In this document: piece by piece, positions 29,751 to 62,945 of the stretch | Layout of the letters: each line of letters starts with the position of its first letter | Numbering within the stretch: the stretch's first letter is position 1 | Origin: Lingula anatina | Taxonomy: Eukaryota; Animalia; Brachiopoda | Direction of reading: 5' to 3' | Assembly (NCBI GenBank): GCA_051362555.1 | Contig: CM120644.1 | Location: 13,538,567-13,602,566, forward strand | DNA length: 64,000 bases | Made by a program: the position numbers and the translations under genes | Notes under the pieces: generated by a model | Told to the model about the DNA's origin: nothing | Databases searched by the model: none | The model's input: only the letters and a program-made list of their open reading frames with translations

Positions 29751-32700
29751 ATGGATCCAACTACTGACTCTGCAAAGTCTGAAGACGTCGGTGAAGGCGC
29801 CAGATCTACCGGACAAGAAGAAAACCCCAAAGAAACTGGAGCTGCAGCCCTTCCGAGACTGGTGAAAGATTACGTCTATGAACCAGGGGTAGCGCGAATC
29901 AAAGCGGAGTATGTTGTGTTTTCTGAAATATTTGCGAGTTTCGTAAATCAGTCTGTTAACATTGGCCCAGGTTTACTGGTATATGAATTTTACGCCAGTA
30001 CCCCATGCAGGTTTATGTTTCTGTCTCCTTTTCCGATTGCCTCCCCCCTCCCCCCATCCCCGAAACACCTCTACACCCACCCCTCCTTTATTTAAAATTT
30101 TACTCTTTTGATTTATACTGGCACTGACGTGTATCTAATTTATTTGGGGATGTAACATTTTCCTTATTCAAAATGTGGATTATCAAGAAGAAATATTCAT
30201 TGCTGTTATATATATTATATATATATATAACTACTGTACCGATACAGGGTGTTACAAGAAACAAACATCAGATTTGTCACATTTCCGCAGATTTTTTTGT
30301 TGACTCAATTCCTGTTGTACTTTCAGATACTTGAATCTGAACTATAAACCCAAAATTGTCACTGAATACTTGCCCCAGGATGTAAAGGAAGAACTATTAT
30401 TGGTTGAACAGAGCAGGGAAAAAGCCAAGAAAAATGACGAAGCATCATCACATGATCCTGATGACTCTTCCCAACCTCCACAAAAGAAGATCAAGAAGTT
30501 GAAAGGCCAACACAAGAAAAGACCAATTGCCAAGCATTCAGATCCTTCCACCAGGCTTTGTCCAGCCTTTGTCACTGAGACACAGTGCTCTTTTGGAGAG
30601 AGGTGTAAATTTAATCACAATGTTGAGGAGTACTTTAAAGCTAAACCAGCTGACCTAGGCTCTCACTGTTATAATTTCGAGACATTCGGTAAATGCCCAT
30701 ATGGCATCACATGCAGATATGCAGGGCAACATATATCAGAAGACTTTAAAAATGTAATGAACGAGGAACTGCACGCACGCACATGTAAAGAGACACAAAC
30801 GCTGAATACTCTGTCAAAAGATGTCCAAACCAAGTTGAGGAGAAGGCAATATGATTTCACGCTAGCAGAGAGCACTTACAAAAACGTTGGGAAAAAGACG
30901 GAGAAGTCAGAGACACAAAGTAACAATGATGTTTTGAAGGCCTCAGTCCCAGAACAGGGTTCTGATTCTTTATCTGAAAATGGTTGCAAAACATCATCAA
31001 ATAGCAAAGAAAAGGAGGAAATCTCTCCCAGCACAATTGAATCAAGTCTGTCAGAAACATTAGCAGATGGTACGTTGAATGATACAACAGCACTGAAGCA
31101 AACAGCGCCCGACAACAGTGACTGTAGTAGCAGCAGTGTTACCGCTGAAAGTGACAAAGGTGCAGAGGCAAAGCCTTTGGCAACAGAGAGTCATGACGGG
31201 CCTGTAAAGCTACGCCCCCAGGAGAGAAAGAAGGTAAAAATTTGTTTCAAGTTATGAAACTCTGGTTGTGTTCACTAAGGATATAGGTTGAATATAGGTT
31301 GATTGAATAAATGTTATTTTAAAGCAGTGAAATAAAATATTTGCTGTTATGTGAAGATTTAACTCCCACTGATATTTGTGTGCATTTTAATAAGTAGTTA
31401 GCTGTGAATAAATAATATAATCAACCCTTTCAGTTGCAATGATCCATTACTTAAAAATGTATTTAATCTTTTTTTTTCTGATTAACACTGTTGAGCTGTT
31501 TTCTTTTTAGATTGATTTCAGGGATAAGCTCTACCTAGCCCCCCTGACCACGGTGAGTTTCAAAAGTATGGTTTAAGTTTAAAGGTGCCTTGTCAATAGT
31601 CTTTGTAAAGTAGAGTAAATCTGAGTGTTAACACATATTACATTCTGTTATCAATTAAAAGTGTAGTTGTATAGCAGATGAATTTGTTGTCGGAGTTTAA
31701 AAAATTCAATTTCTGCTTATACTTCGAAAGCTTTTATCATGTCTGTTAAAACTTCTCATATTAGATTGCTATCTTACTAGGTATAGAAATCAAAAGGCTT
31801 CAGGTATTACACATATAGATTACACCTATTTTTCATTCTGCATCCTTTATTATAATTTGTCGTTTTGTATACGTATGTTCATAGAAAAAAGTTTTTAATT
31901 GCACACAATGAAAATTAATGCAGTATAATGTTAAAAAAATTCATTCAAGTAGTAGTAAAATCTGCAAGATTTTTGTTGCTGACATGCATAATCAGTGCCA
32001 TAATGACAATATCTTCAGGTTGGTAACCTCCCATTCCGTAGAATCTGCAAGGTATACGGCGCAGACATTACGTGTGGAGAGATGGCGATGTCAACCAATC
32101 TGCTACAGGGTCACCAGTCAGAGTGGGCACTTCTCAAGAGACACGCCAGTGAGGACCTGTTTGGAGTCCAGGTATAGTTGTAGCAGTGAAAGTTTCTGGG
32201 TTTATCGGAAAATCCTCGTTGATATTTGGCTGTAGTTCTATTTATGCTTCCCCATACCTCCCCCTCTCTTCCTTTCTCTTATTTGGATGGAGTGTCCTTC
32301 TCTTTCTGATAATTTACAAAGAACTGCAAGACCGTCAGAAAATATCTCTGGATCCGCCCCTGTATATAATATGGGAATTTGACATTGTAAACCAGGGCCC
32401 CGTAACTCTAAAGCATTGCACATTGCGACCGAGCGCAAGCATCTTGATTCCATAACTCGCCCATACTCGCCTCATATAATACAGTGTAGCCTCTGTGTGA
32501 TATCACTGTTCGGAATATGCTATGCTTTCAAGTTACGGGGCCCAGTTTGATCTCTCAGTGTTCACCCTGAGTATCCTGTGTTTCCAGGTGTGTGGAGGCT
32601 ACCCTGATACCATGGCCAGGTGTACCCAGCTTCTGAATGACACCATAGACGTGGACTTCATAGATATTAATGTGGGATGCCCCATTGATATGGTCTTTAA

Positions 32701-35700
32701 AAAGGTATTGTGTTGGTGATTTTTGTTAAAGATGTAAAAAGGATGCAAGCAAGTGCATGTACTCATGCGTGCACATGCACACACACACTCATGCACACAC
32801 GCATGCACTGCTTTAAAGGATATGAAAGGGAGGGTATTTTGTTTTCAAATTTGAGGTGGTGATTGTGAAAAAAGGGCAATATAAGCCATTTTTCTCCTGT
32901 TATAAAACATTATGTCAGGAATGTTTGATAAATAAGTTGTAAGCCAGGTAAATTGTTGAGACAAAAGAAAAATTGTGGTTTTCCTCTGTTTTTCAGGGTG
33001 AGGGCAGTGCACTAATGGGACGACTGAACAGATTTGAGCAAATTGTTAGAAACATGACTGCCATCTCTGATATCCCTGTCACCGTGAAGATGAGAACTGG
33101 AATCTATGAGAACAAGCAGATAGCTCACACTGTGATCCCCAGGGTGAAGGAGTGGGGAGTGTCACTGATGACAGTAAGTACCTCACACTGTGATCTCCAG
33201 GGTGAAGGAGTCGGGAGTGTCACTGATGACAGTAAGTAACTCACACTGTGATCCCCAGGGTGAAGGAGTGGGGGGGTGTCACTGATGACAGTAAGTAGCT
33301 CACACTGTGATCCCCAGGGTGAAGGAGTGGGGGGTGTCACTGATGACAGTAAGTAACTCACACTGTGATCCCCAGGGTGAAGGAGTGGGGGGTGTCACTG
33401 ATGACAGTAAGTAGGTCACACTGTGATCCCCAGGGTGAAGGAGTGGGGGTGTCACTGATGACAGTAAGTAACTCACACTGTTATCCCCAGGGTGGAGTGG
33501 GGGGGGTGTCACTGATGACAGTAAGTAGGTCACACTGTGATCCCCAGGGTGAATTAATGAGTGGTCACTGATTACTTGATTTTCCCAAATGTTTTTCTCA
33601 AAAATCTCTGGTTTAGATCTCTGATCTATGGTAGAATTCCTTACAATTTTCTCACTCAAATGTCTGTCCTGCAAAAATCAGCTGACCACCAAGGGTTTAG
33701 ATTCTATGACACATTTGTAATGAAAGTAATGTAATATTATAATTATTATAGGTTAATGTTATTTTTATTGTATTAATCCCTTTCATTGAGCTAATTTGCA
33801 CCTCATTGCGTATGAGCATGGCATCTTAATTGGTTCGCTGATACTATTTTGTATTTCAGTTACATGGACGGACTCGTGAGCAGAGATACACAAAGATGGC
33901 AGACTGGGACTACATCAACACTTGCTCTAAATTAGCAGATCCAGTGCCTTTCTTTGGTAAGTGAGATATATTTTTATAATTTATTGCACAATAATTTGAA
34001 GCCATGCAGGGAAATAAAGTTTGTAAAATTATTCAGCTACTGCCATCTGTATTATCTATTGCTAAAGTCTTATAAAACCCAGTATTTGAAAAAGCAAAAA
34101 AAAAAAATGATATTAGTCTCTGTTTATGGTTTAGACTGATAGTTTCTTAGACCTTTGTTGCCTGAAGGGCAAGTTGGCAGAAGATTCTTTTTTTTTTTTG
34201 GCACAGTTATTCTGGATCCAAATGTAGTGTTTTAAATAGAATGCAATTGTGGCTCACTGATGCAGAGCTCCTACTTGTATGTGTCTGATCAGGTAATGGA
34301 GATGTGCTGTCATTTGAAGACTACAACCAGCACAGAGAGCAGACTGGGGTGTCAGGGATCATGGTAGCAAGGTAAGGTCAAAGGTCATTTAAGAGGTCAT
34401 ATACCATGGGTCAAAGGTCAAGTTGAAGGTCAAAGTCAATAGTCAGAGTTTTTAATGTTTATTGATAGTTTTGTTCACTTGCTTATTTACCATGTACTCA
34501 TATTTAAGTGGTATATTAACAGGAGAAAAAGGAACATTCTCATCCACTTGTACTGTATGACTCTGTCTCCTGTGGATAATTTCGATTTAACATTTTGGTA
34601 TTCATAAAGATATATTTCTTTACTCTTCTATATTATTTATTAAAATTTGTATTTCATTTATGTTTCTTGTTTATCTTACTTAATTTACATATTTCTCCAG
34701 TAATTGATAAATTAATTGTACCACCAGCGTTAGCGCTGGCGGTACACATGGTTTTAGTCCCGTCCGGTCCGTTCCGCCGGCTCCTGCGGCTCCGCCGGCT
34801 CCGCCGCCATGTTACCGTTACCGCTTCTCCTCCTAGACGGTAAGGGCCCCCATACCCATCTCTTGGATTTAGGTCACCTATAATCTCAACTCGTTCCACG
34901 TAAAATTTGGGCGATGTCGGTATTGGGGTCTAGGTGTGGCACTCATTGCAATGCACCCTTGTCCAAAAATGGCAAAATTAAATGCTAATTATCTACCCTA
35001 CGGAAGGAATTATGGGAAAAATTTCTACAGACGGCTTTCCAAAAGTCATATGTGTAGATTTCAAATATGCCCTTGGATTTGACCTTTGACCTTTATTTCA
35101 AGGTCAAACGGGCCAAAATTTTCAAAAAAATTAATTTTTTTTCGAAAAAAAATTTATTTGCGCTGTTATTCAGACACCACACAGACTTAACCAATAATAT
35201 TATTGGAAAATGTTACCCTTCAGGTCATCTTTCATCTGTGTGAATTTGGGGTCAATCGGTGCATTTTCACGGGTGTAGCGGCCATAAGATACCGAAACTG
35301 AAAACTGTCTCTAATTCAGGAACCATTAATGCTAGAGACCCATTCTTTTTTGCATTTTGTAGAGCATGTAAAGCCCAACACTGGAAGTGGTCTCCGTTTT
35401 TTTGTATTCCATACGGTTTTCGAGTTACACTGTATCAAAAAGTACATATTGGTGGTGAAAGCAAAATGTGCAGTACGGTAATGGATAATAAATTTTGAAC
35501 TCCGGAAAAATAAAACATAAGGCTTGGCAAAGCAGACAACTTGTGGTCAAAAATGACATTATTTCATCAAATTTGAACTTCTGGAACTTCAGAGCACCTC
35601 CCATTTCAAGAATTTTGACCAAAATGACCTTTTCTTTATTTTAATTAATTTTTTCTGTAGGAAATTTATTGCACATTAAGGTAACTCCGAAATTATAACA

Positions 35701-46516: not shown

Positions 46517-49500
46517 GTATTTTGTGGGCCGGGATAGTCATAATATAGGGCCCTAACAAGCGGATGTATAAAACCTAAGTCAGATAAGTTTGTGTATTTT
46601 CATGTATTTATCGCATTGGATCTGTAAAAGTATTGTGAGTTCCCGAAAACCCATTTACACTCGGGAATGGACACTTGCCTACCCCCCCCCCCCCCCACCA
46701 CCACCACCCTATCTCTTAGCAAATAGCCCCAAAAAGGTATGACAACCGAAACGAGGCAAGGTCAGATTTTTTTTCAACGCCGTCCTACATAATTTAGTTA
46801 ATTTTCATCGTCTACTGCTTTATTTTTCCCTGGCTTCACTCGCTAAATTTTATCCTATCAACTCTCCCAAGTCAAGCAAAACCCGCCAATGTAAAAATGA
46901 GAAATAACAAATGGACTCTAATTAAGAAAAAAGAGGATTTATCAAGTTGATTTGCAGGTACAATTCTTAATTTAATCCATCTTTCAGGTGTATGACATTG
47001 AGTATCTCTTCACGCCAGAGAACGGACGCGGTAAGCTCGAGCGCACGACGGTGGAGCACCTCTTTCCGACAAACACCACCAAAAACTTCAACGCCCACCG
47101 CCTGAACAGAGAGGGCCGTTACAGTCGTCTAATCATCACCGCCAAAGACGACGGCGATGTCTTGCGTGAGGACATTTTGCGGCAAGTTCTAGAAATTGAC
47201 AAGACTGTCAATAATATCTCCGTTGATGGTTATAAATTTATTGACATCTGCGGGCGATGGGAAGACGCCTGCGCCGTCACCAACCCCTTTCTCGTCGCCC
47301 TGAATTATAACGCTAGTAACATCCGTGGGGTGTCGCTTTCCTACCCAACCTACGATATGCCCATCAGGGTGCCCATCCCAAATACACCGTACCTCAGAAC
47401 CGTCTTTCTGCCGCTGTTTCTAGGAGGTTCTCTCGGAGGCGCCGACGTAGATGAGGAAAAGAAACTCCAAGAATCCAAAGCAATCCAGCTGGTGTACTAC
47501 CTAGACGAAACCGGCAATGGCTCCTTAACCGACGAATGGGAACAGGCCTTCATGCACGAGTTCGAAGAATTGGTGACGTCAGACAAGTTTTCTGACGTCA
47601 ACGTCGCCTACTTTACGTCACAAACCTTGCAGACCGAGCTGGCAAAGAACCGCGAAATGGTGATCCCGCTTTTCACCATCACTATTGCTATACTGGTGTT
47701 GTTCTCCGTTCTCTCCTGTCTGATGTCGGATTGGGTTCGCAGCAAGCCGTGGCTGGGGGTACTGGGGGTGGTTACGGCGGCGCTTGCCATCATTTCTTCC
47801 TTTGGCTTACTGCTACATATTGGAGTGGAGTACAACGACATCGTGGCCGTCACGCCCTTCTTAATTCTAGGTAAGGGTTATATCACGTTTGAAGTGTGTT
47901 TGTGCTTGCGTGTGTGCGCCATTTGTGACATCATCTATTTAAAGCAGTGGCGTAGTCGTCTGTTTCAATTTCATCCTAAACGACGTTTATTGTGGTACGC
48001 ATAGGGGCCTCTAAAATAGTATACAGAATAACAATAATTTATAACAGACCTTGTGGTCAGAGAGTGTTGTCACTGAAACTAAGACTATGTTCCCATGACT
48101 AGATCGATCCATCTGGATCGGTCTAACTCCCTGGGGAGGCTCAGTAAATTGCTATCAACTAACCGGCTTAAATATCTGTCGCGCCTACAGAATCAGCCAG
48201 TAGATAAATTATAAAGCTAATTACTAACAGCTTTACAAGGCGTGACAGATATTTAAGACAGATAAGTTGAAAGCAATTTAGTGAGACTCCCCAGGGAGAT
48301 AGATCGATCCAAATATCTGTGGGAATGGTCCCTAAAACGTGTTAGTACTGTTGGGACAGTAATCTTTAAAGCGATATTCCCTCTAGCCCTTATTTCGTAT
48401 TTAAAAACTACACCGTTATGCGCGATGTTACAGTAGATACTTGGGAGACGTATATGTGTCAGGGGCAAAATTCAAAGATCAAAAAAGGTGTTTATTTTCT
48501 GGATTTCCGTTCACTTCTTCTGTTGTTCATGATTATTTCATTGGACACATATGTCATGTGGCGCTATTAAATGTTTCACTAGCAACTTGCACTATGTGGT
48601 AGGGGCAAAAGTCAAAGACCAAAGAAGAAAAAAATATATGTTTTGTAGGTAGTCATACGAAGGGCAAGTATCAGCGATCAAAGTCGCTGTTTTGAATTCT
48701 TTATCACGATTACTTTATTGAACGAACAACAATGGTTGCATTGTAGTCTTAAGGGTATAGAGTATTCTTGTACACAGCACAATCGCGAGAAAAGGTAATT
48801 TAGAATTTTGTGTGTGTGGGAGGGGGGGGGGATGCTGGCTGGAAAGGTGGGAAGACTCTCCACGTGCCTGTGCTACCTAAAACGTGGGTAAAAAAAAGCC
48901 CCCCCCCCCCACCTCTATGTTTTTATGTACAAAAGGTAAGGCGGTATCATAACAAATATATTTTGTTGACGAGTAGGCCACTGATAGTAGCCCGAATGAT
49001 GACATTTTCCATTAATAGCCTAAATAGTACTCGTTTACAAAAATCATTTTATATAATTATTAAAATATCTCCCCAGTAGTTGGACAATAGGCCTACAAAT
49101 CAACTTTCTTTCACATGACAAACATATGAAACAAAGTAAGAGAGATAGAACGATAATCTGCTTTCCCCAATGATGAGCATAATAAAAAGAATACCTTCAT
49201 GTGACGTTCTGGCAGTAGGGACACTTTGAGCAGTACAAAGTTCAAGGCAATGTCGCGTCTAGGCTCTTGCACACTACCCTTAGGCGGTACATCCAGGAGC
49301 CTTTAACATTGATATCTGGTATATTGATAAGGTTATAAGTCATATATTAGTACTGGCACCTGGGTGTACTGCTTGACATGTAAGCAATCTTTATATACAG
49401 TATATTCGACATTTGTTTGGTTATCGGTCGCGCACTGACTGGCCCTCTGACGGGGTCAGCGGAATCACACGGGTCGTGGACATTACCTTTTCATTTTCGA

Positions 49501-50690
49501 TACTCAATTTGTGGATAGCTTTGACAACTTGGGTTCTATCACAGATTCATGACTGTCTTGATTGAATGAATTTCAGTTTTCTGATCTGCTTTCTCAGCTT
49601 CGCCCAAAGGCTTAAATTGTCTGGAAAAAAAAAAAAAAAGAAAAACGGGAGAGCATCTGGGCATTAATTGTGGCTTTTAAATATGTATATTTTTTCTGTG
49701 TAGTTTTGGTCCTAAAACTTTATCACAACTTTTTTTCGATTTAATTTATTCACCTGTCTAGATTTTCCAACACTGGTTTCTTTATCTTTAAGAATTGACG
49801 TCAATTATCAATACTTAACTGTGCACCGATTGACGTCGCCTCTTGAAATTACGAGCGGGTAACAATTTAGGACTTCCTAAAAGGCATTTCTTTACTGATG
49901 AAAAAGGAAACCGTTTCTAAAAGGAATCTAAATGTGTTTTTCCACCAATAAAGTATAACGCTCCCACCCTTCACTCTATTTTTATCATCATCACACAAGA
50001 CTCAATGTAAAACCTGGTCCATGTCCTCACTGTGTACTTTGATGAACTTACAAGGCACAGTCTGTACACGTGAAAATTAATGTTTTACCTGTAATAAGTA
50101 ATTTATAAGGCCACATCCTTTAAATATATATGTATGACCCTAACCATCTTCCATCGAAAGAATAGGCATAGTTCACGATAAATCACTTGACTTTTGGCGA
50201 CAAAAGCACAAGTGGACGTTTTCATTTATCACAGTATATAATACATTATAAATTGACGTATCCGAAAATAGAGTGACAATTATATCTTAAGTATTTACCA
50301 AAATGGTTGTCAGATATCAGTTTTCTACATAATTACATTTTACTTGTAATTGCCATTTACTTGTAATTAATTTACTTGTTATTGAATATTGTTAAATTGT
50401 TTGAACATGATCTTCAGGAAAACAAATAAAAAAAAAGATTTCTTGGTAGTTTCGAGAGGAACAAAATTGCTCTTATATATTGCATCTTAGAATATTTCAA
50501 GCAAGAAAGGCGTGCGAATGGTAAAAAGAAAGCGAACCAATATATTTACAGTCATTAAGTAGTTCACAAACCTATACTTACATATTTTTTATTGAAAGTC
50601 ATTTTCTTTTTAAAGTTTGACTCGTGTTCCTGTTCTCACACATTTTAGCGTGCACGCACGCACACGCACAAGCACACACACACACACACT

Positions 50691-50722
<32 letters not shown>

Positions 50723-52856
50723 GAGATCACCTTGGTAAAATCGTCAGATTTCTTATAACAATCAAAAGTAATCAGCCAACACTCTCATGTATGGCGTCAA
50801 TAAATTATTCTTCCAGGTATTGGTGTGGACAACATGTTTGTGATGTTGGCCTCATGGCGGGAGACAGACCCTAGAGACAGCGTGGAGAAGAGGATGGCGG
50901 GAACGTTCTCAGACGCTGGCGTCTCTATCACCATCACGGCCATTACGGACGTCGTTTCCTTCGTCGTCGGCTCCATCACTTTCTACCCGTCTGTCCGGAT
51001 TTTCTGTCTTTATGCAGGTATGGAAATAGGTACACTTTAAATAAATAAATAAAAACATAACTGTTGCATAAATAAAAGTATTTGATAGAATAAATGTTTT
51101 TTCAACGATAAAAATATATTTCTAAAGGACCAAATTGTTTCGTGACGTTCAGTATTAAAAAAAAAAAAAACTCGCAAAAGTAGTGGTTTTGCCGATGTAA
51201 TAATTGCAGTACATCAATTTAAGTGCAAGTGAACATATGAAAGAACAGATTGATAAGATGAAATGGAGAGAGGGGAGATGAATGAGTAGATTTACGAAGC
51301 ATAGATAATTATTAATCCCAAAATTATTATTAAAAAGCAACAACACTTTTAGCACAAAAGATGACATAATTTTAAGGGCCACTCGTCTATATTTATCTAA
51401 CATATTCAAATTGAGTTTTACGGTAGTCCAATTTAGAAGTCCTATGATCGGCGCGTGCTTTATTAGAACGGTTACATGTCACGCTCGAGCTTGACAACAG
51501 TCACCAAGGGCAAATCACTACATGTCCCACCACACTGGAGTGCGGAAAGAGAACTTTGGACATTGTGTAATTAGTGGCGACAACGGGGCCTTATCAGGAC
51601 ACGATTGGCCTTCATTGGCGGATGTAGGGTTTTGCTGGGGAAGAGGGGGGGGCACAAGGATGAAAAATAAGATAAGAATTTATTGAGCCAATAAATGTAT
51701 AAAGATACGAGCATCGGGAAGCGTTTTACTTTAAAAGATAAAACTAATATAAATGAGCATTGGAATGTTTATGACTAAGGCTGAAAGGTGGAATTAAAAG
51801 GTCGAATTAAAGGTGGAATTAAAATACTAAAGATTACATACTGCTTAGAGATAAAAATTCATTAAACCCGTTTACTGCCCTTATAGGCAGAAGCGCACTG
51901 TTGCTAGGTAATGATTTAAATGAGGATTTGTTAGATTGGTTGGATCCCCAAAATTCGTTCCGTTGTTTTTTCCATTCTAAGTTTCATGTGGCCACCCAAT
52001 TGAAAAAGATCTCTACCGGTTATTTTACTATGGATACTATTGATATAGTTCTCTTTTTAGAGGTATAACCCAAAGACTGTGCCCCCTCTGGATCAGCTAC
52101 TGACCTTTTACTGGCTTTACGGAAGGGAGAAGGGGTAGGCCTACATCCGAATCTAAAGGGGGGGGGGGAGGTGTCACGTGGTCCACTGTCTCACCCCCCC
52201 CCTCCCCCGGACCCACCACTGCTCCTCTTTCTGGATACGTTTGTCTGTAGATAAAGTGGCCTATCCTTGAACTTACAGCTCTCTTTGCTTCCGAACTTTG
52301 ATAAATAATTGATAGTGACTGATAAATAATTAACTGTGTCCTTGTTCAGTATCTTATTGTCCTTGTGTAGATGTACTGCGCGACACCGAACTTATCGCTC
52401 CTGCAAAGGTTAACAATTTTATTTTTAAATGCCTCTTATAATACAAAAGTGATGTTGATTTTTTATTTCGTTGTATGATACAGTGGTATATTCATTTTAA
52501 TTCAATATTACGTGATATACGTACTTATAAACAATTCCGTTTAAAGAAAGAATATTTTTTGTTCAAAATAATGTGATTTTTAGATTGATTACTTAATGAA
52601 CCGGTGAACTTGGCACTAATGTATTGAACTGTACGGGGTCTTATTGAAGCGCACTATTGATCATCTGCTAGAGAAAAGCGTTCTACTGGGTATAACATTT
52701 GCAAGATTTGACGAGCATGTGTTACCAAAAACCGCGTGAGTTCTTAAAAAACAAAAAAAGTGGTTCATGTAACCCAAAACACAAAAATCTTGAAAATCCT
52801 CAACACTGGCGGCATTATCGTGAGAATTCGGTGAATCCAGAGATTTAGTGTATCTA

Positions 52857-52912
<56 letters not shown>

Positions 52913-55434
52913 CGGTCTAAAGTACGGCGTCTTTCATGCAAAGCTTAAAACATGAATAAAAGCAATTTAAAAAAATAAAACAAAAAAAAAAATAATAATA
53001 ACATAAACGCAGAACCTAATACACTGTGATAAATCACGGACAAGTCGACGTATGTCTGATTATCAAATGATATGATTAAAGTGCGGGCAATGACTGATAA
53101 GTAAACCATTGAACCAAGTGACCGCCATGCCACCGTCCTGGGTCCTACTTTATCAGTTCAAGTATAGCGTCACAGCGGTGGCACGTGTCACTATTCCATG
53201 CACAAGCTACCGTGTGCAAATGGGGGGAGGGGGGGGGTCACCCTGTTTTGTGATAAGAAAATTCATAAGGTAACATGCCTTGTTCTTAAATTAAGCATAA
53301 TTTGAAATTGTTCAATGTCAGTGCAATACATTTGTAAGATGATAACATTAAAAGCAAAAAATGAAAACAAAAACAAAAACAAACAAACAAACAGCAAGCT
53401 ACCTCGTTGATTGCTCATTTTCGACCCTAACATTATAATATTTACTCATGTTCCGTGTCAAACTCGTATATTCCTTGAGATAATTTAATTCAATTGCATC
53501 TTTTGCTGTTTGTTTTCTTAGGCGTGGCCCTTGTGTTTCACTACTGCTATCAAATCACATTCTTCGGCGCCTGCATGGCTTGGATAGGCCGGAGGGAGAA
53601 AGCCAACAGACACTGTATAACTTTATGCAAAGTTATACCCGAGGCTGATGCAGGTAAATATGCTCTATTTTTTAATCGTGGTGGTACACACCCTCTGGTG
53701 CTTCAAATATCAGTTTCAAAAAGCGATAAAACACATGTCCATTATTTACTTGTGGCTTCTTTCATTGTCCTAAGTTTTCTTTCTAATTTTTCTAAGCATT
53801 TGTTATTAGAGCCTAAAGCATGAGGGAAAGTTGTAAAGATGGATATCTTGTACCTTTCATAATCGTTCTTGCTTTTTTACTTTCTAGATCACAAATCCAA
53901 AGCATACCGTATATTCTGCGCCGGTGGTACCCCGGAATCCGTTGAGATCAAAAAGAAAAAGGAACTGAACAAACACCATATTATGATTTTCTTTCGGGAT
54001 TGCGCCGGACCTTTCCTCTCAAAACGTCCAGTAAAGTTTGTCGTGATTGGGATTTACTTGGCCTATTTAGCCGTTGCCCTGTTTGGCTGCACACGTGTGC
54101 GCGAGGGTATCGAATTACGTAACATGCCCGCAGACGACAGTTACGCCGTTACATTCTACGAACTAGAGACCGAATATTTCAAGAAATTTGGACCAAAAGT
54201 TGCCGTCGTGTTCGACCAAAAACTGAACTATCTCAACTCTTCTGATCAGGAACTTATTCAAGGAGTTTTGGAAGAATTTGAAAATGATACGGACTTTTTC
54301 TACAAACAGGAATTCGAATGCTGGCTGACGGATTTCTTGCTATTCGCCAACGAAAGTAACATAGAGTTGACCGAATCGAACTTCATTCCCACTCTGGAGA
54401 ACGCTTTTCTAAAAATGCCTGGAAAGGAAAAATACAAATCTGACATCGTTTACAATGAAAACAGGACAGAAATCATTGCCTCTCGCTGTTTCGTGCAGTC
54501 AACGAACACCAACGACACAGTGCGCGAGAAGGACATGATGATGCACTCTCGCGCCATCGCGGACAACTCAGAGCTCAATGTCACCGTCTACCACCCTGCC
54601 TTTGTCTACTACGACCAGTACGTCACGATTCTCCCTAACATGCTACAGAACGTTGGAATCGCTTGGGGTTCCATGATGCTGGTCGCCTTGTTTCTCATTC
54701 CGGACCCGGTCTGCTCCATGTGGGTGGCCCTCTCCGTCGCCTCCATCGAGGTCGGTGTCATTGGCTACATGACGCTTTGGGGAGTTAACCTCGACTACAT
54801 GTCTATGATCTACGTTATCATTTGTATCGGGTTTTCAGTGGACTTCTCAGCACATATTGCCTACGCGTACGTCACTGCAAAGGGCAAGGCTAAGAAGAGA
54901 ATCAGAAAAGCCCTCTACGTATTGGGCCTCCCAATTCTTCAAGGTGCCCTGTCCACGATATTGGGCGTCTTGGTGTTGAGCCAATCTTCTGCGTACATGT
55001 TCAGAACCTTCTTTAAAATCATCTTCATGGTGATCCTATTTGGTGCTTTCCACGGGCTTGTAATTATCCCTGTGGTGCTTTCTCTTTGCATGAGAGGGAA
55101 ACCAAAGAAACCCGAAAGCACGACGTATAAGCAACATGACTGCACTGAAGAACAGTGGAGTGAACTTTTAGAAAGGCAAAAACAGAACGGCGGTGCTGGG
55201 GATATCACATTGACCAATCTACCTCCTCCCAGCCAGCCATTTCTCACTCGAAAATCCTCTACTTGCCCCGGTGACTTGAACATGGCGTTCAACAATAATT
55301 CCATAAGATCTGCAAATCAGCCACAAACAAAAAAGTTATTCATCGGAGGGGCGGGCGCATGCGTACAAGTGGATTGGGACGAGGAATCTGGATATTCAAC
55401 GTCGACACTCGGAAGCAGTGGAACTGACCAATGA
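44842..55434 (+). CDS. Patched domain-containing protein 3-like (sterol-sensing domain, RND family), about 970 aa, 5 coding exons
   Basis: Exons 44842-44991, 46988-47870, 50817-51017, 53522-53653 and 53888-55434 splice in frame. Motifs: SDWVRSKPWLG, PFLILGIGVDNMF, AGVSITITAITD, YQITFFGAC, IGFSVDFSAHI, FGAFHGL. A probable non-coding exon ends at the AG|GTAGGC donor at about 43740. Confidence 0.92.
48082..48332. mobile_element. Palindromic MITE, CATTCCCA/GATCGATC family
   Basis: ttcccatgactagatcgatcc...ctccctggggag pairs with ctccccagggagatagatcgatcc...tgggaatggtccc followed by TAA. Homologous to 8815-9025. Confidence 0.65.
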
Positions 55435-56420: not shown

Positions 56421-57392
56421 TTTAAAATATTCACATATAAGGAAGAATAAAAACTCATGAAATGATGGAAATTAGTTGTTATTGAATAACAATTACACGG
56501 TCAAATTTGTGAAAAGAGAAACTCAGTAGCGAGGATAAAGATATAAGAAGAAGGACATAAGCCTTATTGGAATGATAAAATAAAAATAATCAAAAAACAT
56601 CTTTCCCAATACCGATTTTTAAAGTTAATAGAAAAGAAGCATAATAGACTACGCGGATTTTATGAAAATAACAAGCAATTAGTTGCTTTACTATACCGGA
56701 CTTTTATGCAAAAGGTCATTTGCCGTGACCCACGAGAGCCTGTACAAGTACAAGAGGACTTATTTGAGAAGCCAACACGGACCGTTCCTACATAGATTCC
56801 TTTTTTACGATGATTTTCTTTGTTTTATGCTAAGATTTACTTTGGCTTCAACAATGACGACAAAGAGCACAATGGGACGGTTTTAGTTGTAGCAACCCCG
56901 CTATATTCCGTCCTATTCTGCGCACGCGGTGAAATTCTACATTTTCAGTATTAAATTCTTCCCTCGTAAAATCTCTCAGTACCCATTTGAAGTCCTCGCC
57001 CCCTTTTTCTTCTATCCCTTGGAAAATGATATTGTCCCTCTTTGACCTCGCTTGTAAATCAAAGTGCCGGCTATACTGGTTTTTCATCCGATCCCTTTTC
57101 AGGTGACGATTCTCCTTTTCAGTTTCCTTAAACTTGCGCTTTATTTCCCCCATTCTTTCGTCATATTCTTCACGTTTGCAACTTGAAAATTTCACGCTTT
57201 TGTCCATTTCATTGACAGTTTCAGCAACATTTCAGCTTGTTAAGTATTTGATACTAAAGGCGCCCAAAGTATATGTATCTTTTCAGTTTCGCAGCTAAAA
57301 TCACACACTTATGATTGAAAAAGGTTTTAAAATATTCACATATAAGGAAGAATAAAAACTCATGAAATGATGGAAATTAGTTGTTATTGAAT
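56421..57392. repeat. 67-bp perfect direct repeat (56421-56487 and 57326-57392)
   Basis: tttaaaatattcacatataaggaagaataaaaactcatgaaatgatggaaattagttgttattgaat occurs twice, 905 bp apart. Confidence 0.9.
56848..57207 (-). pseudogene. Degenerate LINE ORF1-like fragment (coiled coil plus RRM, L1/Transposase_22-type)
   Basis: DLQARSKRDNIIFQGIEE..ED...RDF....VEFHRVRRIG, then NRPIV after a frameshift, matches the SRRxNLIFxGIxE...HRIG...RPIV pattern recalled for non-LTR ORF1 proteins. Confidence 0.65.
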
Positions 57393-57553
57393 TGAACTGA
57401 ACTTCGATTAACCTCGGCCAATTCCAGCGCCAGTTTCACCGAAACTCTCTCATGATGTTGTGAGTGTCATCTCAAATTACGTCTTGTCTCTCAAGACAGC
57501 AGATGGTTAAAGTACTGGATATTATATTATCTCTTCTTCATTTTACACGTATT

Positions 57554-60500
57554 TCAAGGTACAGTTGTGTTAGCTCTCCGCAACGTCAATAATCCTGTAA
57601 TGATGTCACTTGGCAACATTTTCACACGAGCGTACTCATCTGCATTGGCATACCTTAACTTGGTATGTGGATCTCTGTAGTTAGCCTGTTAAAAATAAAT
57701 AAATAAATTAATTAATTAATTAATTAATAAATAAACACTTTACCTATATAGTTTCATTTATTGCCTAGTGATTCAGGAACCAATTTCAACAAAATCTGCT
57801 CCATACCTTTATAATTGGAGAACATCTATAATTATATACATTCTAGCATTATTTTACAATTTTTAGCTAAGATATAATGGATAATATCTTTAAGCTGTAC
57901 TTACCATCAACCCTGACAGATCTGAATATTTCTTAACTGGCTTAAAGGTAGGTGGGGCATCTATTGATCCATCTGATATTAAAAAAAAAATAATAATAAT
58001 AACAACAAATTACATTGACAGAAAAACAACTCTGAAAAAACAGAATGATAAATTTATCTTAGAAGATTTCAAGCGATGGCTTTAAGGTAGGTGGAGCATC
58101 TATTGATCCATCTGATATTAACAAAAATAATAAATAAATAAATACATAAAAATAACAAATTACACTGACAGAAAAACAAATCTTAAAAAAAAAAAAAACA
58201 AAAGATAAATTAATCTTAGAAGATTTCACACGATTTACCTGTTTTAAAATCTCATCAGCTGTGTTTAACACTGACACTCGAGAAAGTGAACTTCAAAATC
58301 ATCTCAATTTTAAGTCCATGTATTACTCTTTGCAACATGATAAGATATGTCAAGATTGGGTTTAATATGGATATCTAAAATGAATGGTAAATTGGCAAAA
58401 AAAAAAAAAAAATCAAACTCACAAGTGGGGTCATCTGGTTTCCATTGTAACAGTTTCTCGGCAGCTACAATTTGTTTGAGATTTTTCCAAGTTCTACCTT
58501 TTTTACTAGCTGCTGCTTCCTGCCTGGCTTGCTGCAAAGTAAAAGTGGAAAACACCTGTAGAATTATGCATTATTATATTTTAATTGTATCTTTAAAATA
58601 AATTAAGTAATATATTTATTTATTCCAGGTAATGCAAACAAGCTATGAAATGCTACTTTTACCTTCTTTATATACCAGATGTTAGATCTTTTAATACTGT
58701 CAGACAAACATAAAATACTGTATTTCGTAGTTTTCATAAATAAAACAAAACAAAATACACCCCAAAATCAAACAAATACATAAAATGCACATCTTAAGAG
58801 TACACAAGAGAAAAGTATTAAGATATTTAACAGAAATACTTCACTCAAGTCTATTACGCACTACAAAGTTAGGATCCTTAAAAACTGGGATCTTCTCAGT
58901 GCTGACATCTGGTGGGACTGTGAGAGGGCTAGGTCCTGGAGCTGGCGTGCTACATGCTGATGGAGAAGATGAGTTGGGGTTGGTGGGGATGGGCGTGGCT
59001 GGTGCTGTGGGAACTTCGGACTCCTCTGGGGTCTCCTCTGTTGCTGTGGAGGCAGGCTGAAATATATATGTCATCGGTATCTGTTACATGTTACTATGAG
59101 GAACCATTCCCATAACCCTATCGTACTAGCAGGATCGATCTATCTCTGAGGGGAGTTAGATCTATCCTGCTTGTATGATAGATTTATGTGAACCCTGTCT
59201 AAGATATTTATTGTGTTCAAAAAGATTATCAATCAGTGAGTTGCCCAGTTCAGGAAATTAACATATTTATAGGATTGTTTTAATTTTTTTAATCATTTTC
59301 TGATCAAGTAACATTAAACATGTTCAGTAGTTTTAATATTCTGCTTAACCCGTGTCTGGTTTCAAGAATAAGGCCACATTCAGAATCGTGGATTGACTAA
59401 TCCACGGGTCAAATATGGTGACTCACTAAAAAGTTTGTCGTCTCATCAGCTAATAGACACAATAGATTTCCCGTGGGGAAGTATTCAAGTGGGTCAGCCA
59501 TATTTGACCCTCTGAGTAGTTACTAGTAGTCCACTGTTTTGAAAGCAGCCAAAGATTTCAATGAAGAGTTAAAAGCCCCACGATTTTCTATTCTTAAAAA
59601 GCTTTCCAACTAATATGCACTTAATAAAAGTTTGACGGTGACATGAAGAAACAAGATTGATTCATAACATTAACAATGATGAACAATAGATATGCCAATA
59701 CTGTAATCTTCGTGTGTCTGTGCACATGTGAAAATCAAGTAATCACATTATTTGAAAGAAATGCATCTCAAGTCTTACAACAGTTAACATTGGCATCCAC
59801 TTTGCCATTTCTCCAAAAAATAAAATGATGTAGCATACACTTTTCACCTATTTTGTGTAAAAGTGTGTAAATGTCATGTATTCAGAAATGAAACTGAACT
59901 GAATGGTAGTATTTATTCATCAGTATTTATTCATCACATTATTAAAAAAAAAAAATAATAAAGAAATAGCAGACATTTTTTCAATTATGTTTTGCATGCA
60001 TGGTCTTATGACTTTGCCATTTTTTTCAGTCATAGGAAACTGCAGAAGGGCATAAATTTGTAAGGCAACAACAGATTTTCAAAATCTTGTCAATGTTAGG
60101 CTCACTCTCTCCACTTCTCACTTTCAAATACTCTGCAGGAATATTGTCAAATATTTTGAATTTGCTACAAATAAGTCCAATGAGACGCCCTGTGCGAATC
60201 TTCAAACCAGCAATTTTACGCTTCTTTTTCACATCCAGAGGGCATAACTGTATTTTTCCCGATGTAGTACCTGCCAATTCTGCTTGGTACAAATTAAAAG
60301 ATTCGGCTGTATCAGTAGAAAACCTCTTGTCGATCATAACAAAGTCGCCTGGTTGGAAATTATCGAGCATTCCCGATTCTTCAGCAATTTGTCTATCTGA
60401 GGTTTCAAAGTTACAACTCTCAGAAACGCAAGTAACTGTGCCTTGGGGCGATATCCCTATCAGGTACTTTACTGTATCTGGACATGTGTTACTTGAAAAG

Positions 60501-62517
60501 CCACACACCTTGCTTATATGGGCATTAGGTTTCTCCACACTGAGCTCAAAGCTATCAAAAACAAAGAGAACCTTATCCCCAAAGTCTTCTTTGAAAGTCG
60601 CTGGCATTGAAGCTGTCAGTGTTTCCCTATCTGGCCACTTCACTATGAAACTCAGCCTTTGGTGAAGGAGATTGAGAGTGGAATAGAAATGTCTGTATAC
60701 TGTAACATGTGACACGTCTAACTGATATGCAATGTCTTGGATGGTGTAATTCATTTTTAGTTTTATTAGGCATAACATGAATTGGGCTTCCTTTGTCAGA
60801 CTTCTTGTTTCAGTCATGTACGCTTCTACATAGTCAAAAACAAGTTTCAAGGTTTCGAAACTAGGCAAGCCTGTGTAAAAAGAAATTTTATCAGGATTGT
60901 TCTCGTATGCCTCAAAACTGTATAAACCATGCCGTCCGAAAGGTGGTTTGCTGCCTGCTTCTGCCACTCTAGCTCTGTTATCATTTTCAATATTCTCAAT
61001 GTCTTTTGCGGTTAATTCAGTCTGCGTCTCTTTGGTATTACTTGTACAATTGTGTACTTCTAAATTTGCACCTTGCGGTTCCACTTTAACTTCAACTTCT
61101 GCAATAAGTGAGGGATCTAAACTATTAATGCCATTGATGTGGCTGTTCTCTGCAAGTGTTCCAGATTTCGAAGCAAGTCTAGGTTTCTTTGGGCTTGACA
61201 GTGATGGAGCTGCATCTGATAATTTCTTCCTTTCCTTGCGCTGAACGGCACGCTCGTATCGTCTCATGGCAGATTCTGGGACAGTACATGCTGTGTAGCC
61301 CAGGTTAAGTGTTGGTAGCCAGGAAGGATTTAATCTATCGTGCAGATATGCTTTTTCTCCTGAAAAGAGCAGAGTAATGTTTTCTTAAATCAAATGGAAT
61401 GAAGACCATTAAGGTTAATGAAGGGAACAATTAACTTTGCTTCAGCAGATCTTAGTATTTTCATTGATTAATGGTGAGATAATATGCATTCTGTATTGCA
61501 CTAGTCTCAAGAAGATCAAAGTGGGTAATAAATAGTTATGACAAAGAGCAACATAATAATTGTACTTTGCAAACGTACCAAACAAAGTTAAAGATTATAT
61601 CATGATACTAGTACACTTACCATCTACAAAGTGTTTAGCGCAAAGCGTGGTTCGATCCCACTTCTCCTCCGATCTGATGTCCTTCCTATTTACTGCCGCC
61701 TTCCATAACCGCCGCCTCTCTTCCGATAGTCTCCGTGTCTCTTCCCCTTGGTTTTTGATAATTCTGGGGATTTTGTAAAATCGAAGACCTTTTTCTTTAT
61801 TACTGTTACTTGGACAACCAACGATACCACATATTCGCATGATTCTTTGCTAGGATTTAGTGCGGTAAAACGCTGTAACCCCTCTGCTTATCTAAAGTTT
61901 TTGCAGTTGCACGCTTCAGTACAGCGTTTTCTCATTGCCTTGCTAAACAAGATGGCGGGTACCGGAAGTGAACTAATTTTGATACTTCCGTGAAAACAAA
62001 GGTGTAGTAACTGCTAATTTATAACAAAAGCACGCCGTACAATAAAAAAAAAATTTTAGAACAAATAATATCATTATGATTATATACAATCCAATATCTC
62101 GGAGTCTTTCTTGTAACCTTCGGGTAAGGGGGAGGGGAGGGGGTTTAGTAGCATCTTCAGATGTGCCGATAACCCCCTCGATCTGTCTTCATATTTCCTT
62201 CCTACATCCAAATTTCGAGGTGAGAAACCACCATATCAAAAGATTCAGTGAGTTTTTCACACGGCCAGTTAAATCCTTATCTAAGAAAATCAGGGACGTC
62301 TGGATTTTTGACAGAAGATTTAACGTGTTCAACATTTCAAAGCTATGCATCTCACTCAAAACAGCAATGAAACTATGTTAAAGTGGCTGGGTAGAGTAAA
62401 AGATGTCCCTAGACCTACCGTTCCTGGTCGTTTCTTTCTCGTGCTTGGGGTTGATGACCCAGGGCTGACAGAACGTTTGGTGCTTGCAGCGCGTCGCGGT
62501 CTTGTAGAAGTTGCCAT
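57554..62517 (-). CDS. INO80C: INO80 complex subunit C (IES6 homolog), 5 exons, 200 aa
   Basis: Exons 62517-62419, 59056-58862, 58531-58423, 57972-57905 and 57685-57554 splice in frame. Motifs: FKDPNFV, KKGRTWKNLKQI, YGSIDAPPTFKPVKKYSDLSG, ANYRDPHTKLRY, LPSDIITGLLTLRRANTTVP* (YL1_C domain). Confidence 0.93.
57939..58228 (-). repeat. Tandem duplication of the INO80C exon-4 acceptor and the first half of exon 4
   Basis: 57939-58071 matches 58078-58228. Both copies contain atatcag|ATGGATCAATAGATGC. Confidence 0.9.
59100..59195. mobile_element. Short palindromic MITE, CATTCCCA/GATCGATC family
   Basis: ccattcccataaccctatcgtactagcaggatcgatcta pairs with tagatctatcctgcttgtatgatagatttatg. Confidence 0.55.
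59372..59550. mobile_element. Palindromic MITE with GGC termini and TAA left flank (Harbinger-like)
   Basis: ggccacattcagaatcgtgga...gggtcaaatatggtgactcact pairs with agtgggtcagccatatttgaccc...tccactgttttgaaagcagcc. Confidence 0.6.
60026..61840 (-). CDS. THAP zinc finger + HTH + DDE_Tnp_4-type (PIF/Harbinger-ISL2EU) transposase-derived protein, 517 aa, 2 exons, nested in INO80C intron 1
   Basis: Exon 61840-61621 (CGIVGC...FYKIP...LWKAA...CAKHF, donor G|GTAAGT) joins exon 61359-60026 (acceptor TTTTCAG; WLPTLNLGY, SFYTGLPSF, QFMLCLIKLKMN..QDIAYQLDVS..TV, KWP, MP..F, FDSFE, TVKYLIGISPQG, PGDFVMIDKRF, KIRTGRLIG). No stops or frameshifts. Confidence 0.9.
61949..61992. promoter_or_regulatory. Housekeeping-type promoter motifs (YY1 plus two ETS sites) about 110 bp upstream of the THAP-transposase ATG
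   Basis: AAGATGGCGG at 61949-61958, ACCGGAAGTG at 61961-61970 and ACTTCCG at 61984-61990. Confidence 0.6.
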
Positions 62518-62653
62518 ATTGTAAACAACAACGATTGCGATAGAGAAGACAACGCAACGCAATGAATGTGTAAAAAAAAGTAAGAAATTTTATGAATGAA
62601 ATATGGCTGAAACGTGTGTCTTGTTATAAAACCATGAAAGGAAAAAAGAAACC

Positions 62654-62945
62654 CAGGGGCGGATCCAGGATTATTATTAATATTATTATTATTATTATTT
62701 TTATTTATTTTTTTTTTTTTTGGGGGGGGGGGGTCCGGTTTTTAGGAATGATCGACAGGCCGCGGATGCGAAGCCGACCGATCGCTCCCCCCCCCCCCAA
62801 ATGGGGGGGTTCAGGGCACGCACGTTAAAATGCCCTGAAAATTTGGTGTTTTAGGGGAAGAACGGTGCCATTTGATACGGTTTAGAACTACAGTATGATT
62901 CAGTTAGTAAAAATTCTAATTTCAAGAAGTGATCATTGGTGTGAT
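62654..62945. mobile_element. CAGGGGCGGATCCAG-ended element immediately upstream of INO80C
   Basis: Inverted homolog of 11134-11427. Confidence 0.6.

What the first reader, a model, noticed from the sequence alone, without database searches (positions are those of the whole stretch)
60026..61992. Candidate domesticated, catalytically dead THAP-Harbinger/ISL2EU transposase gene nested in INO80C intron 1
Seen: an intact 517-aa ORF with one canonical intron, on the same strand as INO80C. I see no TIRs or TSD around it and no partner ORF, and a YY1/ETS motif cluster sits just upstream. Established: active DDE_Tnp_4 proteins of this group read roughly IDCTE...SxYKxxNT...GGRxSD...ADRGF...RIHVERVIG, and ISL2EU elements normally also encode a YqaJ-type exonuclease. 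Here the two Asp remain (FDSFE, IDKRF), but the Glu is Gly (KIRTGRLIG) and the YK and GGR motifs are gone (SSNTCPDT, NFETSD). The THAP C2CH ligands and the HTH are intact. Inference: the gene is retained as a host DNA-binding or scaffold protein, comparable to plant ALP1/HDP1, which are Harbinger-derived chromatin-complex partners. Its position inside a chromatin-remodeller subunit gene, beside a motif for YY1 (an INO80 partner), suggests co-regulation, but this is unproven.
Basis: partly seen in the sequence, partly recalled or inferred. Interest (0 to 1): 0.85.

Follow-up and report, generated by a model that had tools for sequence, protein, structure and literature searches.

The report
Tamed dead transposase inside INO80C intron
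Inside the first intron of a lamp-shell chromatin-remodelling gene lies an expressed, spliced gene descended from a jumping-DNA enzyme; it has lost a key cutting residue but kept its DNA-binding parts, so it likely now serves the host as a DNA-binding regulator, predicted to work in pairs, with no sign of a special tie to the gene around it.

Summary
Observation confirmed. The 517-codon, two-exon THAP-HTH-DDE_Tnp_4 gene is the Lingula anatina gene LOC106160908 (508 of 516 aligned residues identical). It lies in INO80C intron 1, with triad D/D/G and no TIRs or YqaJ partner found. RNA from three studies covers it, and its intron is spliced in 3 of 4 runs. A diverged Lingula sample carries it beside INO80C exon 1. 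Against an intact Lingula sister, change is confined to the catalytic domain (60 vs 6 unique residues; THAP 14 vs 6; coil+HTH 22 vs 19), with no stop or frameshift. Listed variants give omega about 0.4-0.5. A homodimer through the HTH region is predicted. Against: constraint is modest, one diverged version fails to align over codons 1-20, one run shows a possible frameshift, a near-identical copy on another scaffold is unresolved, and no ortholog was found outside Lingula. The YY1-type motif also sits at the 5' end of related THAP genes, so INO80 co-regulation is unsupported. A 2023 paper's supplement already lists this gene as a transposon-derived factor, and this scan reported the same kind in three other animal genomes. 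Verdict: probably domesticated; a new member of a known kind.

The parts
61621..61840 (-). Exon 1 CDS: most of the THAP zinc finger (C4, C9, C67, H70 intact)
   Evidence: RNA depth
61360..61620 (-). 261-nt GT..AG intron
   Evidence: spliced reads 10/0/6/7 in four runs
60026..61359 (-). Exon 2 CDS: end of THAP, helix, disordered linker, coiled helix, HTH_Tnp_4 and degenerate DDE_Tnp_4 domain
60554..60556 (-). D342, first catalytic Asp, kept
60329..60331 (-). D417, second catalytic Asp, kept (neighbours RG changed to KR)
60188..60190 (-). G464 in place of the catalytic Glu (E in 195 of 220 homologs)
61949..61969 (-). ETS-type plus YY1-type motif at the gene's own 5' end; RefSeq mRNA begins at 61952; read ends pile at 61934
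62419..62517 (-). INO80C exon 1 (CDS part)
   Evidence: matches RefSeq INO80C-like protein P0123; joint
58862..59056 (-). INO80C exon 2
   Evidence: joints 59056/62419 and 58531/58862
61763..61765 (-). Cryptic acceptor in the THAP exon, used at low level by the INO80C exon 1 donor; out of frame, stop after 58 aa
   Evidence: 2 and 4 reads in two runs of one study; frame

Best explanation
An ISL2EU-type transposase gene sits in INO80C intron 1 of Lingula, is transcribed and spliced, has lost its catalytic glutamate and shows no transposon ends, and is likely kept by the host as a DNA-binding regulator predicted to dimerise through its HTH region. Shown: the anatomy, the expression, the loss of catalytic motifs, the open frame across diverged samples and the rate shift limited to the DDE domain. 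Inferred: it no longer cuts DNA (one triad residue lost; PMC4671723 reports that one such loss cripples a PIF/Harbinger transposase); it uses its own 5' end rather than INO80C's; two THAP fingers on a flexible linker would bind paired DNA sites; the folded but inert RNase H-like domain would serve as scaffold for host partners. The position in INO80C is likely an accident of insertion: the host splices the whole gene out.
For: Relative-rate test against intact Lingula sister P0002, outgroup P0003: DDE 60 vs 6 unique residues (p 3e-12); THAP 14 vs 6 (p 0.12); coil+HTH 22 vs 19 (p 0.76); outgroup P0020 gives the same pattern. Of 101 columns at least 80% conserved among 261 homologs, 34 of 37 are kept in the N-terminal part and 41 of 64 in DDE (Fisher p 0.002). 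Branch 0.85 vs 0.12 for the sister, yet no stop. Chance of no stop under neutrality is 0.056 counting only the 54 excess DDE changes, 0.004 counting all 102. The three DDE indels against relatives are in frame, as are the coding 15-nt and 3-nt indels between samples, while eight listed intron indels are 1, 2 or 4 nt. Listed coding variants: 14 synonymous, 17 non-synonymous; neutral synonymous share 0.26; omega about 0.42, p 0.015. Window vs RefSeq allele: 0 amino-acid changes in THAP (96 aa) and DDE (182 aa), 6 of 8 in the linker; 5 of 112 nt differ in the 5' UTR vs 0 of 238 in the first coding stretch (read by eye; p 0.003). Spliced RNA in 3 of 4 runs. One X10 contig links the gene to INO80C exon 1. 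Homodimer of residues 180-516: score 0.57, best of 3 controls 0.00; runs share at least 60% of contacts, pLDDT at least 76; the mark was reached by 21 of 30 solved microbial pairs and 0 of 23 single chains, and by 17 of 29 eukaryotic pairs (animals 7 of 16; 1 of 7 without an older solved relative) and 0 of 30 singles.
Against: Constraint is modest: X10 rows alone give 11 syn/16 non, p 0.065 (0.14 at kappa 6), and all 4 listed X10 changes in THAP are non-synonymous. The variant tables were cut to 40 of 311 and 40 of 321 rows. X10 coding pieces differ by 6-12%, little less than non-coding pieces at 7-15%. One of two X10 versions does not align over 61781-62246 (codons 1-20 and promoter; 274 other letters). 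A 1-nt deletion at 60886 shows in 4 of 15 reads (2 starts) of X12 and 0 of 10 in X13. The intron joint was not seen in X15, where depth is 0-4. P0121, 411 of 413 identical, lies on another scaffold; allele or second copy is unresolved. No ortholog with the same losses among 261 homologs (at most 5 of 26 derived residues shared), and organism B gave only one 35-nt piece. No DNA target, partner or phenotype is known.
Confidence: 0.5

Rival explanations
1. It is kept as a repressor of its own parent family: it would bind the ends of intact ISL2EU elements in Lingula, or pair with their transposases and poison them, as truncated THAP-bearing P-element proteins repress P elements.
For: Intact-DDE sisters exist in the same species, each at two annotated loci (P0002; P0003/P0127). 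THAP is 68-69% identical to them against 76% between them. The 10 predicted dimer-interface residues are identical at 8 in P0002 and 9 in P0003. Precedent: P-element 66 kDa and KP repressors (PMC7776569, passages read).
Against: A repressor needs no full-length folded DDE domain, yet 41 of 64 conserved DDE columns and the frame are kept. No heterodimer or TIR binding was tested. The activity of the sisters is not shown.
Confidence: 0.22
2. It is a once-selected or merely slow-decaying transposase remnant, transcribed from its old promoter and now drifting towards loss.
For: Omega only 0.4-0.5; THAP variants all non-synonymous; one X10 version unaligned over the start and promoter; possible frameshift allele in X12; confined to Lingula so far.
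Against: Neutral decay would speed up all domains, not DDE alone, and would break a 1.55-kb frame over a branch of 0.85 changes per site. Coding indels seen are in frame.
Confidence: 0.2
3. It is a partner of, or co-regulated with, the INO80 complex through YY1, or it tunes INO80C output through the out-of-frame splice from INO80C exon 1.
For: Nested position; similar depth to INO80C exons in X12 and X13; minor exon 1 to 61763 joint in 2 of 40 and 4 of 43 listed exon-1 splices of those runs. The YY1-INO80 partnership is recalled.
Against: The motif is shared with other Lingula THAP genes, including an intact relative. Depth is several-fold below INO80C exons in X15 and X18, and the minor joint was not listed there. 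No protein-level evidence.
Confidence: 0.06
4. It is still part of a mobile element, moved in trans or by an atypical active site.
For: A near-identical copy is annotated on a second scaffold (P0121); two versions in X10.
Against: No TIRs or TSD, no YqaJ gene, 23 conserved DDE columns lost. X10 depth fits two versions of about 46-50 each that merge to about 86-115 in shared stretches, as two alleles would.
Confidence: 0.02

Closest known systems
ISL2EU group of the PHIS (PIF/Harbinger-ISL2EU-Spy) DNA transposon superfamily (PMC4482050, PMC9179366; passages read)
   Same: THAP + HTH + DDE transposase in one ORF; nests within a well-supported clade of intact-DDE relatives, two families of them in Lingula.
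   Different: Glu and neighbouring motifs lost; no YqaJ ORF, TIRs or AT target duplication found; fixed intronic site.
LOC106160908 / XP_013393134 in Mukherjee and Moroz 2023 (PMC10027918; passages and supplement rows read)
   Same: This very gene is listed as 'THAP DDE_Tnp_4' among 27 Lingula THAP potential TE-derived transcription factors.
   Different: That list also holds intact-DDE relatives (LOC106181877; La_54716 in the selection matrix); the main text has no occurrence of 'catalytic' or 'inverted repeat'. Catalytic loss, nesting and splicing evidence were not seen in what I read.
ALP1 (PMC4671723, passages read) and HDP1 (PMC5339849, search listing only) of Arabidopsis; insect PIF domestications (PMC9710019, abstract and one methods section); HARBI1 (one passage in PMC4671723)
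   Same: Same superfamily; domesticated nuclease ORF with a broken triad (ALP1 is DGA).
   Different: PIF/Harbinger branch, no THAP domain, often co-domesticated with a Myb/MADF gene; ALP1 is conserved across land plants and has proven PRC2 partners. Here one THAP-bearing gene, so far one genus, no partner known.
P-element 66 kDa and KP repressors (PMC7776569, passages read)
   Same: THAP-bearing, non-catalytic, transposase-derived DNA-binding proteins.
   Different: Different transposase superfamily; truncated rather than full-length; encoded by mobile copies.

Membership tests
ISL2EU transposon (autonomous) | Transposase with THAP, HTH and DDE domains | tested here: met
   Pfam; tree
ISL2EU transposon (autonomous) | Intact DDE triad | tested here: not met
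   D342/D417/G464; 176 of 217 homologs complete at the three columns are DDE
ISL2EU transposon (autonomous) | Second ORF with YqaJ exonuclease domain | tested here: not met
   no hit in 97 ORFs; a gene split into short exons elsewhere in the window could be missed
ISL2EU transposon (autonomous) | TIRs usually starting GG, with AT target duplication | tested here: not met
   searched within INO80C intron 1 only; TIRs as short as 6 bp cannot be excluded
ISL2EU transposon (autonomous) | Dispersed multiple copies | tested here: inconclusive
   no genome held; P0121 on a second scaffold unresolved; X10 fits two alleles
Domesticated PHIS transposase gene (criteria of PMC9710019 section 14) | Intact coding region | tested here: met
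   RefSeq allele; caveats
Domesticated PHIS transposase gene (criteria of PMC9710019 section 14) | No TIRs or TSD | tested here: met
Domesticated PHIS transposase gene (criteria of PMC9710019 section 14) | Purifying selection | tested here: met
   moderate: omega about 0.42, p 0.015 on truncated tables; domain-specific rates
Domesticated PHIS transposase gene (criteria of PMC9710019 section 14) | Conserved synteny and exon structure across species | tested here: inconclusive
   same site and intron in a sample 6-15% diverged but bearing the same species label; no other species with the gene found
ALP1/HDP1-type chromatin-complex accessory protein | Physical association with PRC2, a HAT or another chromatin complex | not testable with these tools
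   needs pull-downs; no INO80 complex prediction was run
ALP1/HDP1-type chromatin-complex accessory protein | Harbinger-type nuclease without own THAP domain, acting with a Myb/SANT partner | tested here: not met
   own THAP domain; no Myb/SANT hit

The most novel reading that the evidence does not exclude
ISL2EU transposases are a recurrent, unrecognised source of host THAP regulators across invertebrates, made by erasing the active site while keeping the THAP finger and an HTH dimer interface; this Lingula gene is a young case that polices its still-intact sister elements by binding their ends or pairing with their transposases.
Probability: 0.2. Interest if true: 0.65.

Novelty: new member of a known kind. 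Interest (0 to 1): 0.36.

Why it matters
It is a young domestication whose intact sister transposases survive in the same genome, so the steps from enzyme to regulator can be compared directly: which residues go first, and whether the first host job is repression of the parent family. It also shows that lists of 'TE-derived THAP factors' mix intact transposases with dead ones, and that a per-domain rate test separates them.

Tried and rejected
No whole genome was held, so copy number could not be counted. A search for short fragments with the degenerate DDE region found nothing. A search with INO80C for a second Lingula copy, to test whether P0121's scaffold is a haplotig, was uninformative because the query's own cluster is not represented by INO80C. 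No indexed RNA holder was listed; raw RNA runs were laid instead. X3 gave mostly holes and paralog pieces, and X11 one 35-nt piece. Four rows at 61679-61693 were dropped from the selection count as paralog-contaminated (3 synonymous, 1 not). My INO80C exon 3-5 boundaries were off, so that translation check is not used. PDB sequence search matched only THAP domains. Foldseek gave weak matches to Mos1 and integrases (best E 4e-5, TM 0.13-0.20 by query), enough only for an RNase H-like fold. The AlphaFold model (pLDDT 83) is of the RefSeq allele and rests on an alignment of mostly intact relatives, so it does not prove the dead domain folds. No Rfam match. Literature searches showed no title or abstract start on ISL2EU domestication, on this locus or on an INO80C-nested transposase; subscription papers are not covered, and bioRxiv supplements were not seen. 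Earlier-finding look-ups by relatives and by sequence were empty. A fusion protein of INO80C exon 1 with the THAP domain was rejected: the joint is out of frame.
Full report
Observation. On the minus strand, exon 1 (61840-61621) and exon 2 (61359-60026) join over a 261-nt GT..AG intron into 517 codons with a single terminal stop. Pfam finds THAP, HTH_Tnp_4 and DDE_Tnp_4 above their cut-offs. The best database hit is Lingula anatina LOC106160908, 516 aa, identical at 508 of 516 aligned residues. The flanking exons match the RefSeq INO80C-like protein, whose family is confirmed by its homologs. The triad is D342/D417/G464. There is no excess of inverted repeats between the two flanks within the intron and no YqaJ or Myb hit among 97 ORFs.

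Expression. Four RNA runs from three studies were laid on 57450-62850. INO80C exon 1 joins exon 2 across the whole gene in all four (38, 11, 5, 39 reads). The gene's own intron is spliced in three (10, 0, 6, 7). In the stranded runs X12 and X13 coding depth is about 10-36 on the expected strand, close to INO80C's first exons; in X15 and X18 it is 0-6, several-fold lower than INO80C. Read ends pile at 61934 in X13 (5 molecules, depth 11), the RefSeq mRNA begins at 61952, and depth between there and INO80C exon 1 is near 1, so the gene likely has its own start. A minor joint from INO80C exon 1 to 61763 (2 and 4 reads, one study) is out of frame and stops after 58 aa.

Origin and rate. In a tree of 40 HTH+DDE sequences the gene falls in a fully supported clade of 21 rows, next to the intact Lingula transposase P0002 (weak support, 88/60), on a branch of 0.85 against 0.12. 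The excess is confined to the catalytic domain. With P0003 as outgroup, residues unique to this gene versus P0002 are 60 vs 6 in DDE (p 3e-12), 14 vs 6 in THAP (p 0.12), 6 vs 2 in the helix after THAP (p 0.29) and 22 vs 19 in coil+HTH (p 0.76); P0020 gives the same picture. Of 101 columns conserved in at least 80% of 261 homologs it keeps 75; P0002 keeps 96 and P0003 94. Of the 26 lost, 23 are in DDE, including Y364, K365, G390-R392, R418, G419, R460, H462 and E464 (Fisher p 0.002). A neutral pseudogene would decay evenly and gain stops. The chance of no stop is 0.056 for the 54 excess DDE changes alone and 0.004 for all 102, and the three DDE indels against relatives are whole codons.

Within Lingula. 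DNA contigs of run X10, far more diverged than the RefSeq allele, cover all 30 bins of 59650-62530. They hold two versions (17 and 30 differences in one 257-nt DDE piece), each at depth 46-50 and merging to 86-115 in shared stretches, which fits two alleles of one locus. One 979-nt contig runs from exon 2 through the intron and THAP exon and, after an unaligned stretch, into INO80C exon 1. Both versions carry an in-frame 15-nt linker insertion, while eight listed intron indels are 1, 2 or 4 nt. No listed row restores a lost catalytic motif, but the tables show only 40 of 321 rows and 40 of 311. The 31 coding rows usable after dropping 4 paralog-contaminated ones are 14 synonymous and 17 non-synonymous: omega about 0.42, p 0.015 at the observed kappa of 2.6, range 0.003-0.045 over kappa 1-6. 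Against the RefSeq allele, THAP and DDE show no amino-acid change and the linker six.

Results against. The X10 rows alone are not significant (11 vs 16, p 0.065) and the four in THAP are all non-synonymous, though two match an intact sister. Coding pieces of X10 are only a little less diverged than non-coding ones. One X10 version has 274 other letters in place of 61781-62246, which spans codons 1-20 and the promoter: a possible null allele, or a failure of alignment. X12 shows a 1-nt deletion at 60886 in 4 of 15 reads from 2 starts, in a run of four T; X13 shows it in 0 of 10. P0121 (411 of 413 identical, annotated without the THAP exon) lies on another scaffold of the reference assembly, and I could not tell haplotig from second copy. 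No ortholog outside Lingula appeared in two protein searches or in organism B. The domestication is therefore young or thinly sampled, and constraint is moderate.

Mechanism. AlphaFold models the RefSeq allele with mean pLDDT 83 and a disordered linker at 128-183; the alignment was mostly intact relatives. A two-copy prediction of residues 180-516, folded without the alignment, scored 0.57 against 0.00 for the best of three controls. Runs shared at least 60% of contacts, pLDDT was at least 76, and the mark was reached by 17 of 29 solved eukaryotic pairs (1 of 7 without an older solved relative) and 0 of 30 single chains. The interface (217-234, 275-285) is in the HTH region, whose rate did not change, and is identical at 8 and 9 of 10 positions in the two intact sisters. 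The most likely reading is a dimeric, non-cutting DNA-binding protein acting on host genes (0.50). A repressor of the parent family, like the P-element 66 kDa and KP proteins, is the main functional rival (0.22). Slow decay remains possible (0.20).

The INO80 link. CCGCCATCTT is unique in the window, while the ETS-type 8-mer is at chance level. A CGCCAT(A/T)TT motif lies near the 5' end of 4 of the 7 other Lingula THAP mRNAs visible in the supplement part read, including the intact-DDE LOC106181877 (by eye). It is most simply the element's inherited promoter. Nothing here ties the protein to INO80 or PRC2 (0.06).

What is known. ISL2EU elements are defined by a THAP-HTH-DDE transposase, a YqaJ ORF, GG-starting TIRs and AT duplications; only the first is met. 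Domestication of Harbinger-superfamily nucleases with broken triads is established (ALP1; insects). This gene is already listed as 'THAP DDE_Tnp_4' among potential TE-derived factors in the supplement of PMC10027918, alongside intact relatives. My searches showed no paper on ISL2EU domestication as such. This scan's earlier, unchecked notes report the same kind in three other animal genomes, and 41 of 217 homologs complete at the triad columns are not DDE (fast alignment, many may be pseudogene translations).

Verdict. Real, expressed and probably domesticated; a new member of a known kind. Interest 0.36.

Noticed in passing
window 58077-58146 vs 57938-58007: Partial tandem duplicate (84% over 70 nt) of the acceptor and first half of an INO80C exon; RNA depth is 0 over the duplicate in all four runs, so it seems unused.
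   Followed up: partly
window 59099-59192 and 59441-59522: Two repeats in INO80C intron 1 with RNA on both strands and many loose read ends; a 40-bp-arm hairpin at 59107-59192. They look like small non-coding transposon pieces.
   Followed up: no
window 61935-61888 (-): Upstream ATG in the 5' UTR opens a 15-codon uORF; in the RefSeq allele its stop is absent, so it would overlap the main start out of frame. The read-end pile at 61934 falls within this ATG (read by eye).
   Followed up: partly
proteins P0019, P0161, P0301, P0302 (unnamed records): An independent fast-evolving lineage in the same clade (branch 0.48), with the RIHV part of the RIHVE motif lost, the Glu kept and tandem 12-aa repeats in the linker; a possible parallel domestication.
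   Followed up: partly
proteins P0120 (Nothobranchius) and P0095 (Patiria): Annotated full-length relatives with broken triads (EGQ, DSE); further candidates for domestication.
   Followed up: no
window 56848-57231 (-): 127-codon frame that resembles a LINE ORF1-type fragment (recalled resemblance); no significant Pfam hit.
   Followed up: no
window 46976-55434 (+) and 30304-33236 (+): Neighbouring ordinary genes: a Patched/sterol-sensing domain gene facing the INO80C 3' end, and a DUS3L-like gene.
   Followed up: no
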